Assembly (NCBI GenBank): GCA_964399675.1
Contig: CAYNRK010000002.1
Span: 46,982-110,981 of the forward strand
Length of the DNA stretch: 64,000 bases
Source of the DNA: an uncultured Gammaproteobacteria bacterium
GTDB lineage: Bacteria; Patescibacteriota; Patescibacteriia; UBA9934; GWF2-40-263
Reading direction: 5' to 3'
In this document: positions 36,016 through 36,954 of the stretch, in pieces
Layout of the letters: each line of letters starts with the position of its first letter
Position numbering within the stretch: the first letter of the stretch is position 1
Translations under genes and position numbers: made by a program
Notes under the pieces: model-generated
Databases searched by the model: none
What the model was told of the DNA's origin: nothing
What the model saw: only the letters and a program-made list of their open reading frames with translations

Positions 36016-36954
36016 ATGAATACAATTTTCTTTGGCACGCCGGATTTTGCCAATCCATTTTTGCAAATACTTATTAACGACCAGGATGTAAAAGTCGTTG
36101 CTGTTGTGTCTCAGCCTGATAAGCCCTCTGGACGAAAAATGGAAATCAAGCCAACGCCTGTAAAGCAGTTGGCAATTGATAATTCAATTCCTGTTCTTCA
36201 ACCGAAAACATTAAAAGATGAAGGAGTGCTTGAACAGTTGGAAAAATTAAAGGCAGATGTTTTTGTTGTTGTTGCTTATGGAAAACTAATTCCAAAAACT
36301 GTTCTTGATTTGCCAAAGTTTGGTTGCGTAAATGTTCATCCGTCTTTGCTGCCAAAATATCGCGGGCCTTCTCCGGTTCAATGGGCACTTTTAAACGGAG
36401 ATGGAAAAACCGGAGTGAGTATAATGTTGCTTGATAAAGGAATGGACACTGGACCAATACTTTCTGTTGAGGAAATCTTGATTAATGAAAATGAAACGTA
36501 TCAGTCGCTTAGAAATAAAATTACTTCAGTCGGACCTGACTCACTTTTGAAAACTCTTAAGAATTATGTTGCTGGGAATATCAAACCTGTTGATCAGCAA
36601 GGCGATGTGTCTGTTACTCGTTTGCTTACAAAAGATGACGGGCATATTGACTGGTCTGAATCAGCAGAGGTGATTGATCGAAAAATCCGAGCCTTACAAC
36701 CATGGCCGTCAACCTGGACTGTTTGGAAAGAAACCAGATTGAAAATAATTACTGCGTCGTTGCGAGGAGGCCGTCCGACGGCCGACGAAGCAATCTCCGT
36801 TGGGAATGTTGCAATCGAAAATGAACGGCTGTTTGTAATGACAGGCAACGGGTCGCTAGAAATCCTAGAAATCCAACCAGAGGGCAAACAAAAAATGCCT
36901 GCTGAGGAATTTATAAAAGGACATCCTGAGATTGAAGGAACAACGCTAAAATAA
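36016..36954 (+). CDS. fmt: methionyl-tRNA formyltransferase
   Basis: Formyltransferase N-terminal domain (HPSLLPKYRGPSPVQWAL) and C-terminal domain. Downstream of def. Confidence 0.9.
   Translation: MNTIFFGTPDFANPFLQILINDQDVKVVAVVSQPDKPSGRKMEIKPTPVKQLAIDNSIPVLQPKTLKDEGVLEQLEKLKADVFVVVAYGKLIPKTVLDLPKFGCVNVHPSLLPKYRGPSPVQWALLNGDGKTGVSIMLLDKGMDTGPILSVEEILINENETYQSLRNKITSVGPDSLLKTLKNYVAGNIKPVDQQGDVSVTRLLTKDDGHIDWSESAEVIDRKIRALQPWPSTWTVWKETRLKIITASLRGGRPTADEAISVGNVAIENERLFVMTGNGSLEILEIQPEGKQKMPAEEFIKGHPEIEGTTLK

What the first reader, a model, noticed from the sequence alone, without database searches (positions are those of the whole stretch)
36755..36802. GC-rich palindromic repeat element embedded in-frame inside fmt
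ctgcgtcgttgcgaggaggccgtccgacggccgacgaagcaatctccgt inside the fmt ORF matches the intergenic element family gcgtc(a/g)ttgcgag-[GC hairpin]-gcaatc(t/c)tc. That family also occurs at 11506-11560, at 47808-47855 on the reverse strand, at 10637-10690 and at 35781-35835. The fmt frame is maintained across it (...ITASLRGGRPTADEAISVGN...). This is reminiscent of Rickettsia palindromic elements, which insert in-frame into coding genes.
Basis: seen in the sequence. Interest (0 to 1): 0.5.

Follow-up and report, generated by a model that had tools for sequence, protein, structure and literature searches.

The report
Palindromic repeat translated inside fmt
A 47-49-base GC-rich hairpin repeat of the widespread "CGTC-tagged REP" kind (the kind that includes some Rickettsia palindromic elements) sits in frame inside the methionyl-tRNA formyltransferase gene of a candidate-phyla-radiation bacterium, where it replaces the tip of a surface loop; it is a genuine example of a phenomenon that is already known.

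Summary
The fmt ORF (36016-36954) contains at 36752-36800 a full copy of a repeat family that has six other TTGCGAG/TTCCGAG-type copies and two sister-type copies in the window. The pattern gives 6 exact hits against 0.10 expected by chance.

The copy is 67% GC in a 39% GC gene. It has no stop codon in any of the six frames. It encodes residues A247-V262.

Orthologue alignment and an AlphaFold model place these residues at the tip of a variable beta-hairpin in the C-terminal domain. That is the only low-confidence stretch of the model. The catalytic residues and the overall fold are intact.

It is a replacement, not a pure insertion. Sixteen element-coded residues stand where orthologues have 10-12, a net gain of 4-6.

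Three syntenic relatives have no copy of the element in 57 kb. They also have tight def-fmt and rplQ-rplM junctions where the window carries repeat inserts. The family therefore invaded this lineage.

Head (CGTC/TGTC), AT-started stem, short tail and position after genes fit the CGTC-tagged REP superfamily of Di Nocera et al. 2013, for which intragenic copies are documented. The same core occurs in many phyla and sits in frame in other real genes.

Verdict: a new member of a known kind, of moderate to low interest. How the element is mobilised remains unknown.

The parts
36752..36800 (+). Intragenic copy of the palindromic element. It comprises the head (CT)GCGTC, P1 GTTGC/GCAAT, the internal loop GA/GAA, a G-C pair, tandem GA/GA, P2 GGCCGT-CCG-ACGGCC and the tail CTCCGT. 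It encodes Fmt residues A247-V262.
   Evidence: Searches give exact head and tail matches. One search gives an RNA fold of -20.9 kcal/mol with the same architecture as the other copies. One search gives 67% GC. One search shows it is stop-free in all six frames.
36016..36954 (+). fmt (methionyl-tRNA formyltransferase, 312 aa), intact, host of the element
   Evidence: One search finds 7695 homologues, carrying PF00551 and PF02911. One search shows the invariant N106/H108/D144 are present. One search gives an AF2 model with pLDDT 93.8. One search gives TM 0.91-0.94 to solved Fmt structures. One search gives E 8e-67 to E. coli Fmt (1fmt/2fmt).
35777..35824 (+). Intergenic long-form copy, 30 nt after the def stop codon. 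Its head and tail are identical to those of the fmt copy.
35852..35884 (+). Intergenic short-form copy with a TGTC head, in head-to-tail arrangement with the previous copy
35274..35747 (+). def (peptide deformylase). In relatives it abuts fmt, but here it is separated from fmt by a 268-nt repeat-filled insert.
10639..10686 (+). Intergenic long-form copy, 25 nt after the stop codon of ORF 9736-10614. It is part of the 246-nt composite repeat 10629-10874, which matches 35767-36012.
   Evidence: (D1)
10714..10746 (+). Intergenic short-form variant (TTCCGAG)
11505..11547 (+). Intergenic copy, 14 nt from the stop codon of the convergent gene 11561-12793 (-)
47809..47857 (-). Intergenic copy, 8 nt after the rplQ stop codon and upstream of rplM. 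Relatives have no spacer at this junction.
2274..2329 (+). Sister-type copy (TGTC-ATCCC-GAG...GAGGGAT-C). Its P2 GGCCCG-TCCGA-CGGGCC has the same loop as the fmt copy. It lies 11 nt after the stop codon of ORF 1172-2263.
   Evidence: (I1)
16581..16636 (-). Sister-type copy, 98% identical to the copy at 2274-2329, in antisense orientation just upstream of clpB
   Evidence: (I1)

Best explanation
The segment is a copy of a miniature, non-autonomous palindromic repeat of the CGTC-tagged REP type. It consists of an unpaired CGTC/TGTC head, a stem that starts A-T (or G.T) and a short pyrimidine tail.

The family spread in this Patescibacteria lineage. Most copies landed just after stop codons, where they are most likely transcribed as 3'-end hairpins. 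One copy came to occupy the tip of a variable, solvent-exposed beta-hairpin in the C-terminal domain of Fmt.

The copy has no stop codon in any frame, and the net length change is a multiple of three. It is therefore simply translated, as ASLRGGRPTADEAISV. The enzyme keeps its fold and catalytic residues, so the copy persists as a tolerated passenger.

Shown:
- The fmt segment is a member of the family.
- It is in frame.
- It lies in a loop.
- The elements are absent from syntenic relatives.
- The hairpin is conserved through many different P2 sequences.
- Orientation is biased towards the sense strand after genes.

Inferred:
- Mobilisation happens as a single-stranded DNA hairpin by a trans-acting HUH/Y1-type (RAYT or IS200-like) or other enzyme.
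- The ancestral loop tip (about 10-12 codons) was lost at or after insertion.
- The insert is neutral for Fmt function.
For: Family membership and non-chance:
- 6 pattern hits against 0.10 expected.
- Identical 13-nt head and 15-nt tail.
- A GC spike in the gene.
- The same P1, internal-loop and P2 fold in all long copies.

In-frame position in a loop:
- Orthologue alignment A1.
- R241-G263 spacing of 22 against 16-19 residues.
- The AF2 model has pLDDT 93.8, with its only weak block at residues 251-260, and DSSP shows a loop at 250-263 between strands 240-249 and 264-268.
- TM 0.91-0.94 to solved Fmt structures.

Gain in this lineage:
- The syntenic relatives L241-L243 have def and fmt, and rplQ and rplM, 1 nt apart or overlapping.
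- They have no element copy in 57 kb, and their loop DNA is unrelated to the element.

A real sequence: an independent assembly carries it.

Superfamily: head, AT stem start, tail, position downstream of ORFs and intragenic copies are all described for CGTC REPs (PMC3733652). The same core occurs in many phyla, including other Patescibacteria.

In-frame copies in other real genes: AIRS/ThiL-like, methyltransferase, GMP synthase, EPSP synthase and GT2, each with Pfam domains spanning the element.

Selection on the hairpin:
- Of 239 distinct elements (229 distinct P2 cores), 82% show P1 in the minimum-free-energy fold.
- Mean z is -1.47 against core shuffles.
- The CGTC strand folds about 2 kcal/mol better than its complement, in 165 cases against 44.
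- Close to gene 3' ends, the sense orientation outnumbers antisense 14 to 1 within 30 nt.
Against: - No mobilising enzyme was identified. None of the 19 non-syntenic or island ORFs tested has a Y1/HUH transposase domain. Di Nocera et al. state that CGTC REPs lack a dedicated transposase.
- No empty-site allele of fmt exists in the databases. The nearest non-identical homologue is only about 60% identical. The insertion event and its boundaries are therefore inferred, not seen.
- The net gain is only 4-6 residues, so a simple insertion does not explain the site. A deletion or a replacement by recombination must be added.
- Some orthologues carry SLRPxDFxAD at the same place. This resembles the element's SLR-5aa-AD at the protein level. 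One such orthologue (L243) was checked at the DNA level and uses different codons, so I read the resemblance as coincidence, but this is not proven.
- The stems are interrupted (a 5-bp P1, an internal loop, then P2), unlike the continuous 8-9-bp stems of the four published CGTC families. The window copies are single or head-to-tail, not head-to-head.
Confidence: 0.8

Rival explanations
1. Structured-RNA reading. The family is primarily a functional RNA motif, for example a 3'-end stabiliser, an RNase barrier or a protein-binding hairpin. On this reading the copy inside fmt acts on the def-fmt mRNA, by pausing ribosomes or protecting the upstream part of the transcript, and is not a neutral passenger.
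For: - The internal-loop purines (GAG...CGAA) are strongly conserved across phyla.
- P2 varies in a compensatory way.
- Folding is strand-asymmetric.
- Orientation after genes is 14 sense to 1 antisense.
- The G.T pair at the first stem position of three window copies is a G.U pair only on the CGTC strand.
Against: - There is no Rfam family, at gathering threshold or at E<=5.
- No T-run follows the hairpin, so it is not an intrinsic terminator by the simple scan.
- The folding asymmetry may come only from the energy model's bonus for purine-rich loops.
- One sister-type copy is antisense to both of its neighbours.
- Nothing shows a specific effect inside fmt.
- This reading is compatible with, and not exclusive of, the mobile-element reading.
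Confidence: 0.25
2. Domesticated loop. On this reading the element-coded peptide (a basic RGGRP stretch followed by an acidic ADEA stretch) has been co-opted as a functional surface of the C-terminal, tRNA-binding domain of Fmt.
For: - The copy is intact and in frame in two assemblies.
- The C-terminal domain of Fmt is the tRNA-binding domain (established knowledge from the E. coli complex 2FMT, listed).
Against: - The DNA is still a near-consensus element with a perfect P2 stem. It shows no sign of amino-acid-level refinement.
- The loop is the least confident part of the model, with a block mean pLDDT of 63.
- The loop is the most variable stretch in orthologues.
- The same family sits in unrelated enzymes elsewhere, which argues against a specific function.
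Confidence: 0.07
3. There was no insertion. On this reading the resemblance is chance or convergence, and the residues are the native Fmt loop.
For: - Several orthologues have SLR and AD at matching spacing.
- The total length of Fmt (312 aa) equals that of orthologues.
Against: - About 0.0007 chance matches are expected in a 939-nt ORF, scaled from 0.10 per 128 kb of both strands.
- Exact 13-nt and 15-nt matches flank a GC-rich perfect hairpin.
- The segment is the GC maximum of the gene.
- The one SLR-bearing orthologue checked (L243) uses different codons.
- The loop is the longest of 30 sequences.
Confidence: 0.02
4. The feature is an assembly or binning artefact, in which repeat reads collapsed into fmt.
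For: Repeats do break assemblies. The independent contig L240 ends within a repeat 400 nt downstream of fmt.
Against: Two assemblies agree base for base across the element and its flanks, and differ by one substitution elsewhere in the gene. The reading frame and the fold are preserved.
Confidence: 0.02

Closest known systems
CGTC-tagged REPs (Di Nocera, De Gregorio & Rocco 2013, BMC Genomics 14:522; PMC3733652)
   Same: - Short palindromic multicopy repeats with an unpaired CGTC (or TGTC) head.
- The stem begins with A-T pairs.
- There is a short unpaired tail.
- Copies lie mostly just downstream of ORFs.
- Occasional copies lie wholly inside ORFs and are read in frame.
- No dedicated transposase is known.

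Proteobacterial copies of exactly this core carry the published CCA tail, and many of the listed loci carry head-to-head pairs.
   Different: - The stem here is interrupted. It has a 5-bp P1, then a conserved purine internal loop, then a variable P2, where the published families have a continuous 8-9-bp stem.
- Copies are up to 49 nt long.
- The tail is CTC or CTT.
- Window copies are single or head-to-tail.
- The host is a Patescibacteria genome, a phylum not listed in that paper.
- I could not check whether this exact TTGCGAG core is one of the paper's four families, because the figures are not held. It is absent from the paper's supplementary list of intragenic peptides.
Rickettsia palindromic elements (RPE; Ogata et al. 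2000; summarised in PMC10969869)
   Same: Both are palindromic repeats that are inserted in frame in housekeeping genes, are translated, and are found at positions compatible with the protein fold. RPE-4 and RPE-6 are classed as CGTC REPs.
   Different: - The sequences differ. Rickettsia CGTC-1 and CGTC-4 copies encode SFPRKRES/VIPAKAGI-type peptides, not ASLRG...EAIS.
- The classic RPE-1 is about 150 bp long.
- RPEs interrupt many genes per genome, whereas here 1 of 9 copies in 64 kb is intragenic.
- The host phylum is different.
GTAG-type REP/REPIN-RAYT systems of gamma-proteobacteria (Bertels & Rainey 2011; PMC3337134)
   Same: Both are hairpin repeats with a conserved 5' tetranucleotide, lie after genes and occur in many copies. 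The REPIN-RAYT system gives the most plausible mechanistic analogy: recognition of a single-stranded hairpin by a Y1 HUH transposase.
   Different: The head here is CGTC, not GTAG. No RAYT was found in the window. The REPIN doublet architecture is not seen here.
MITEs with terminal inverted repeats and target-site duplications (e.g. Correia/NEMIS, ERIC, QMITE)
   Same: Both are small, non-autonomous, dispersed elements that can fuse in frame with host ORFs.
   Different: No target-site duplication is visible at the fmt copy (flanks ATTACT / TGGGAA). The whole unit is a single hairpin, not two terminal inverted repeats around a core.

Membership tests
CGTC-tagged REP superfamily (Di Nocera 2013) | Unpaired terminal tetranucleotide CGTC (variants TGTC and CCTC are allowed) | tested here: met
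   All 9 window copies start with CGTC (5 copies) or TGTC (4 copies) directly before the stem.
CGTC-tagged REP superfamily (Di Nocera 2013) | Stem of 8-9 bp with complementary A-T at the first and second positions, and a loop of 4-5 nt | tested here: inconclusive
   The stems start AT...AT in 6 copies and GT...AT (a G.T pair) in 3 copies. The helix is split into a 5-bp P1, a GA/GAA internal loop and a 4-7-bp P2. In the predicted folds the terminal loop is 3-4 nt. The stem start is met, but the continuous stem length is not.
CGTC-tagged REP superfamily (Di Nocera 2013) | Short unpaired tail (consensus CCA) | tested here: inconclusive
   The window tails are C-TCC, C-TTC and C-CTC. Copies of the same core in Proteobacteria end in GCAAT-CCAG.
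CGTC-tagged REP superfamily (Di Nocera 2013) | Multicopy and dispersed, mainly intergenic and close to the 3' ends of ORFs | tested here: met
   There are 9 copies in 64 kb, 8 of them intergenic. Five lie 8-30 nt after the stop codon of a co-oriented gene. In low-GC loci the count is 14 sense to 1 antisense within 30 nt of a stop codon.
CGTC-tagged REP superfamily (Di Nocera 2013) | Predominantly head-to-head dimers | tested here: not met
   The window has two head-to-tail pairs and five single copies. Head-to-head pairs of the same core appear in many of the other genomes listed.
CGTC-tagged REP superfamily (Di Nocera 2013) | No dedicated flanked transposase (no REPtron) | not testable with these tools
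   Only 64 kb of the genome is available. No Y1/HUH domain was found in the 19 ORFs tested.
Rickettsia palindromic elements (RPE families 1-10) | Sequence membership in an RPE family, shown by its conserved encoded peptide | tested here: not met
   The R. conorii intragenic CGTC-1 and CGTC-4 peptides are SFLRKQES, SFPRKRES, VIPAKAGI, WIPWSNHGMT and similar. The fmt peptide is ASLRGGRPTADEAISV.
Rickettsia palindromic elements (RPE families 1-10) | In-frame insertion into functional genes at positions compatible with the protein fold | tested here: met
   This behaviour, though not sequence membership, is met.
REPIN-RAYT (GTAG REPs) | A GTAG head and an associated RAYT gene flanked by REPs | tested here: not met
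   The head is CGTC or TGTC. No RAYT was found in the tested ORFs.
MITE (terminal inverted repeats plus target-site duplication) | Target-site duplication flanking the insert | tested here: not met
   The flanks of the fmt copy, AATAATTACT and TGGGAATGTT, share no direct repeat. The intergenic copies share only the element-internal YT-G preceding the head.
Any Rfam RNA family | Covariance-model match | tested here: not met
   There are 0 hits at gathering threshold in the whole window. For 35740-36850 there is nothing on the elements at E<=5.

The most novel reading that the evidence does not exclude
CGTC-type palindromic repeats recently invaded a streamlined Patescibacteria lineage. There are 9 copies in 64 kb here, against none in 57 kb of syntenic DNA from three relatives. 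The invasion reached into a gene of the translation-initiation machinery. In the same lineage, portable 5'-UTR-like cassettes and high-GC islands split formerly abutting operon genes.

The most novel reading follows from this. Genomes of this group are very small, and close relatives lack the repeats. The complete genome could therefore expose, by simple subtraction, the still unknown enzyme that mobilises CGTC REPs. That enzyme is an open question left by Di Nocera et al. 2013. The interrupted-stem TTGCGAG core, which is nearly identical across more than ten phyla, may then mark recognition by one conserved, horizontally spreading protein.
Probability: 0.15. Interest if true: 0.55.

Novelty: new member of a known kind. 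Interest (0 to 1): 0.3.

Why it matters
This case shows that REP/RPE-like repeats can be written into proteins outside Rickettsia and the Proteobacteria. Here the host is an ultra-small candidate-phyla-radiation genome, and the gene is a core translation gene.

It gives a clean natural example of how tolerant a surface hairpin is. Sixteen foreign residues sit at the tip of a hairpin of the Fmt C-terminal domain, and the predicted fold is unchanged.

There are two practical lessons. Annotators should expect ASLRG...EAIS, VIAS..KQS and DCFASLAMT-type peptides in predicted proteins to be repeat-derived. MAG curators should expect assembly breaks at these repeats.

The comparison with repeat-free syntenic relatives makes this lineage a reasonable place to look for the unknown mobilising activity of CGTC REPs.

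Tried and rejected
- **Rfam.** The whole window at gathering threshold and the def-fmt region at E<=5 gave nothing on the elements.
- **Literature by sequence strings and encoded peptides.** The strings tried were TCATTGCGAG, GCGAAGCAATC, DCFASLAMT and others. Only primer coincidences came back. The consensus figures of PMC3733652 are not held. Its supplementary list of intragenic peptides lacks this core. I therefore could not assign the element to CGTC-1 to CGTC-4.
- **Literature linking Patescibacteria with REP or RPE elements.** None was found in the held library.
- **An empty-site fmt allele.** The 5.8-billion-protein search returned only an identical copy and then homologues of about 60% identity or less. 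No close relative without the element exists to define the junctions.
- **Extra degenerate copies in the window.** I searched for the head with up to 2 mismatches and the tail with up to 3. The extra hits at 40649 and 52400 were read and are not palindromic, and the remaining weak tail hits are no more than chance would give.
- **Canonical ATTCCC...GGGAAT-type CGTC-1 repeats.** There are none in the window. One is present at the divergent end of L240.
- **SLR...AD microhomology with orthologues.** It was considered as a homology-directed replacement site. It was rejected at the DNA level because the one such orthologue checked (L243) uses different codons.
- **K-turn or sarcin-ricin-like reading of the conserved internal loop.** It was considered by eye and does not fit the consensus of either motif. 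It was not pursued.
- **Translational bypassing (byp-like).** It was considered and judged unnecessary, because the frame is open and continuous and no matching take-off and landing codons flank the element.
- **Promoter and terminator scan of 35200-37100.** The elements are not flagged as terminators or promoters.
- **A crude helix-length statistic.** It was uninformative and was replaced by minimum-free-energy folds compared with shuffles.
- **A covariance model.** It was planned but not built, because the head and tail searches already saturated the window.
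Full report
**Observation.** The pattern TTGCGAG-N(4-34)-GCAATC occurs six times in the window, against 0.10 expected from dinucleotide-preserving shuffles. A search for the head finds seven copies of GYGTCRTT(G/C)CGAG without mismatch. A search for the tail finds the same loci. Two short copies (10714-10746 and 35852-35884) and two copies of a sister type (TGTCATCCCGAG...GAGGGATC at 2274-2329 and, inverted, at 16581-16636) were not listed. Weak extra hits at 40649 and 52400 are not palindromic and count as chance.

The 13-nt head and the 15-nt tail of the fmt copy are identical to those of the copies at 10639 and 35777. Its P2 hairpin (GGCCG-TCCGA-CGGCC) resembles those at 47851, 11511 and 2276. 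The segment is 67% GC in a gene that is otherwise 39% GC. It is the GC maximum of the gene and lies in the top 1.2% of all 49-mers of the window. An independent ENA assembly (L240, 1403 nt) carries the same gene with the same element and differs by one substitution elsewhere in the gene.

**Anatomy.** Every long copy folds into the same shape. The shape has these parts, in order:
- an unpaired head, (G)CGTC or (G)TGTC;
- P1, a 5-bp helix (A/G)TTGC / GCAAT;
- a conserved purine internal loop, GA opposite GAA (GTG or GCG in two copies);
- a closing G-C pair;
- often a tandem GA/GA;
- a GC-rich P2 of 4-7 bp whose sequence differs between copies while staying complementary;
- a terminal loop of 3-4 nt in the predicted folds;
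- a tail, C(T/C)(T/C)CGT.

The fmt copy folds at -20.9 kcal/mol. It has no stop codon in any of the six frames.

I also analysed 239 distinct elements (229 distinct P2 cores) collected from the window and from public loci. Of these, 82% show P1 in the minimum-free-energy fold. Their folds are more stable than shuffles of their own core (mean z -1.47). The CGTC strand folds about 2 kcal/mol better than its complement, in 165 cases against 44. Part of that asymmetry may come from the energy model's treatment of purine-rich loops.

**What it does to Fmt.** The host is a Patescibacteria (CPR) bacterium, to judge from the source names of the Fmt homologues. The nearest non-identical homologue is only about 60% identical. 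In an alignment with 29 homologues, the catalytic N106, H108 and D144 and 55 other columns are invariant.

The element-coded residues A247-V262 fall in the most variable stretch of the protein. Between the invariant residues R241 and G263 the window has 22 residues, while the homologues have 16-19 with a mode of 18. E. coli and B. anthracis Fmt are also shorter there, by four and three residues respectively. So 16 repeat-coded residues stand where relatives have 10-12. This is a replacement of a hairpin tip with a net gain of 4-6 residues, not a clean 15-residue insertion.

An AlphaFold2 model has mean pLDDT 93.8. Its only weak block is residues 251-260, with a mean of 63. DSSP places residues 250-263 in a loop between strands 240-249 and 264-268. 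The model superposes on solved Fmt structures with TM 0.91-0.94. The enzyme therefore looks intact, and the foreign residues form a surface hairpin tip in the C-terminal domain. I could not measure the distance from this loop to the tRNA.

**Evidence that the family was gained in this lineage.** Three relatives (L241, L242, L243) share the gene order M23 peptidase - gltX - wecG - clpB - ... - priA - def - fmt - wzy - glycosyltransferases - rpsI - rplM - rplQ - rpoA. In these relatives def and fmt are 1 nt apart or overlap, and rplQ and rplM are 1-4 nt apart. In the window the same junctions hold inserts of 268 nt and 186 nt. Each insert is made of the palindromic elements plus a repeated cassette.

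The 57 kb of relatives' DNA contains no copy of the element, and the DNA of their fmt loops shows no similarity to it. Some homologues have SLRPxDFxAD at the site. That echoes the element's SLR-5aa-AD, but the one such homologue checked at the DNA level (L243) uses different codons (TCACTTCGT against TCGTTGCGA). I treat the resemblance as coincidence.

**What family it is.** The head, the A-T start of the stem, the short tail, the position after genes and the occasional intragenic copies match the CGTC-tagged REP superfamily of Di Nocera, De Gregorio and Rocco (2013; PMC3733652). That superfamily includes Rickettsia RPE-4 and RPE-6 and Neisseria dRS3. The authors found no dedicated transposase for it.

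A scan of one genome per species found the same core, CGTC(A/G)TTGCGAG...GCAATC. The hosts include Alpha- and Gammaproteobacteria, Bacteroidota, Chloroflexota, Nitrospirota, Planctomycetota, Armatimonadota, Firmicutes, Melainabacteria and other Patescibacteria (L035, L052). Proteobacterial copies carry the published CCA tail, and head-to-head pairs appear in many of the listed loci. A metagenome scan with the window's tail also stopped at its limit.

The family differs from the published definition in three ways: the interrupted stem, lengths up to 49 nt, and single or head-to-tail arrangement in the window. The consensus figures of the paper are not held, and the paper's supplementary list of intragenic peptides lacks this core. 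Assignment to one of the four CGTC families therefore could not be checked. Rfam has no matching family.

**In-frame copies elsewhere.** Screening the fetched loci for elements spanned by long ORFs gave many spurious hits in high-GC DNA. It also gave clear cases in real genes, where Pfam domains span or lie on both sides of the element:
- L137: an AIR-synthase/ThiL-like protein, read in the same frame as here (ASLRGRPGRRAEAIFV).
- L158: a class I methyltransferase, with two copies in opposite orientation.
- L066: GMP synthase, with two copies in opposite orientation.
- L099: EPSP synthase.
- L147: a family 2 glycosyltransferase.

The phenomenon is therefore recurrent for this family, as the 2013 paper and the RPE literature (PMC10969869) describe for related repeats.

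**How it most likely works.**
- Shown: this is a multicopy hairpin family with conserved ends and compensatory stem variation. It is gained in this lineage and lies mostly 8-30 nt after stop codons. Seven of the nine window copies have the CGTC strand as the sense strand. In low-GC loci the sense orientation outnumbers antisense 14 to 1 within 30 nt of a stop codon.
- Inferred: the intergenic copies are transcribed as 3'-end hairpins. They lack a T-run and are not flagged as intrinsic terminators.
- Inferred: new copies arise through a single-stranded hairpin intermediate handled by a trans-acting enzyme. This is by analogy with REP-RAYT and IS200/IS605, which is established knowledge (PMC3337134). 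No such enzyme was found among 19 non-syntenic or island ORFs, and 64 kb cannot exclude one.
- In fmt: the copy survives because it landed in a dispensable hairpin tip, is open in every frame and left a multiple-of-three length change. The loss of the ancestral tip, at or after insertion, is inferred.

**Rivals.**
- Chance resemblance is excluded by the numbers above.
- An assembly artefact is unlikely, given the second assembly.
- A primary RNA function of the family is compatible with the data and is not exclusive of mobility. A specific role inside fmt has no support.
- Domestication of the peptide is unlikely. The DNA is still a near-consensus element, and the loop is the least ordered and most variable part of the protein.

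**Novelty.** The kind (CGTC-tagged REP) and the behaviour (in-frame intragenic copies, as in RPEs) are both known. New here are the host phylum, the target gene, the interrupted-stem variant and the clean contrast with repeat-free syntenic relatives. I found no paper in the held library that links such repeats with Patescibacteria. I rate the finding as a new member of a known kind, with interest about 0.3.

Noticed in passing
window 37050-40350 (ORF 37590-39305 +): A high-GC island (53-63% against a 39% background) lies directly downstream of fmt. It is absent from syntenic relatives, where fmt is followed at once by wzy. Its 571-aa ORF has no Pfam or PDB sequence hit. It does match NCBIfam 'TIGR-Tas system RNA-guided endonuclease' (E 3.9e-17, 62.9 bits, below the cutoff of 100) and, weakly, the IS110 RNA-guided transposase family. 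The ORF is flanked on both sides by several families of 40-70-nt repeats (D2, D4, D7-D10, D19, D20), which could be a TIGR-like guide array. TIGR-Tas systems were reported from phages and parasitic bacteria (PMC12045711).
   Followed up: partly
window 19500-24000: A second high-GC island (50-58%) holds five + strand ORFs (19517-20212, 20393-20998, 21085-22299, 22466-23119 and 23147-23890). None has a Pfam, NCBIfam or PHROG hit. For the three copies of repeat D3 (ORFs 21085, 22466, 23147), an ~83-nt repeat (CTCACTCAGGGCG-hairpin-CCGTTTCCTTGTGAACATGAG...) runs into the start codon and the first codons, and the related repeats D6 and D12 also lie before 20393 and 24024. This suggests a paralogous gene family with a shared leader.
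   Followed up: partly
window 10745-10880, 11104-11232, 35883-36018, 47676-47804 (-): A repeated cassette of ~130 nt lies immediately upstream of ATG codons. It consists of a 30-bp hairpin, ACAGTCACGTTGTATA(TA)ATTTCGGCAG...CTGGCGAAATTATA(TA)CAACGTACCTGT, which contains a TGTATAAT extended -10-like motif, followed by GGAGGATTGTG-N-ATG. Two copies precede real genes (fmt and rplM) that have no spacer in relatives. The other two are orphans followed by tiny ORFs. The cassette looks like a portable promoter and 5'-UTR module that travels with the palindromic elements (246-nt composite 10629-10874 = 35767-36012, 93% identical). The simple promoter scan did not flag it.
   Followed up: partly
L240 1359-1403 versus window 37321 onward: The second assembly diverges from the window inside the island. 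At that point it carries a classical CGTC-1-type repeat on the reverse strand (GATTCCCGCCTGCGCGGGAATGACG, the complement of CGTCATTCCCGCGCAGGCGGGAATC). The window holds no repeat of this type. This indicates strain-level variation at the island border and a second CGTC repeat type in the population.
   Followed up: no
L133 4233-4869, also L149, L151, L157, L166, L181, L188, L192: Metagenome contigs Ga0099364_* and JGI24701J34945_* hold tandem arrays of up to 11 units of a CGTCGTTGCGAG...GCAATCTCCGT element at a period of about 65 nt. In the array read (L133), the 16-17-nt 'spacers' are also conserved (GTGYCACTATCCYCATC), so that array is a satellite-like cluster and not a CRISPR array.
   Followed up: partly
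L137 5805-5850, L158 1258-1290, L066 4465-4544, L099 (element at residue 368 of the spanning ORF), L147 734-769: Copies of the same element family are read in frame inside real genes of other organisms. These are an AIRS/ThiL-like gene, a methyltransferase (two copies in opposite orientation), GMP synthase (two copies in opposite orientation), EPSP synthase and a GT2 glycosyltransferase. In each, Pfam domains span or lie on both sides of the insert.
   Followed up: yes
window 40544-41062 (+) and 15206-16504 (+): Two ORFs are not present in the syntenic relatives. One is a 172-aa protein with a PaaX_M (Cas2-like) domain, just beyond the TIGR-Tas-like island. The other is a 432-aa protein with no family hit, lying between wecG and clpB and followed by the antisense sister-type repeat at 16581-16636.
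   Followed up: no
window 28621-28664, 40494-40536, 41051-41097, 60294-60340, 60855-60901: A further palindromic repeat family, unrelated to the finding, has the sequence AGACTATTTTCCGNCGATCGNCGGAAAATAGTCT, centred on CGATCG. A similar AAGTATTTTATAAC...CGATCG pair flanks ORF 60337-60849. See (D11; I6-I8).
   Followed up: no
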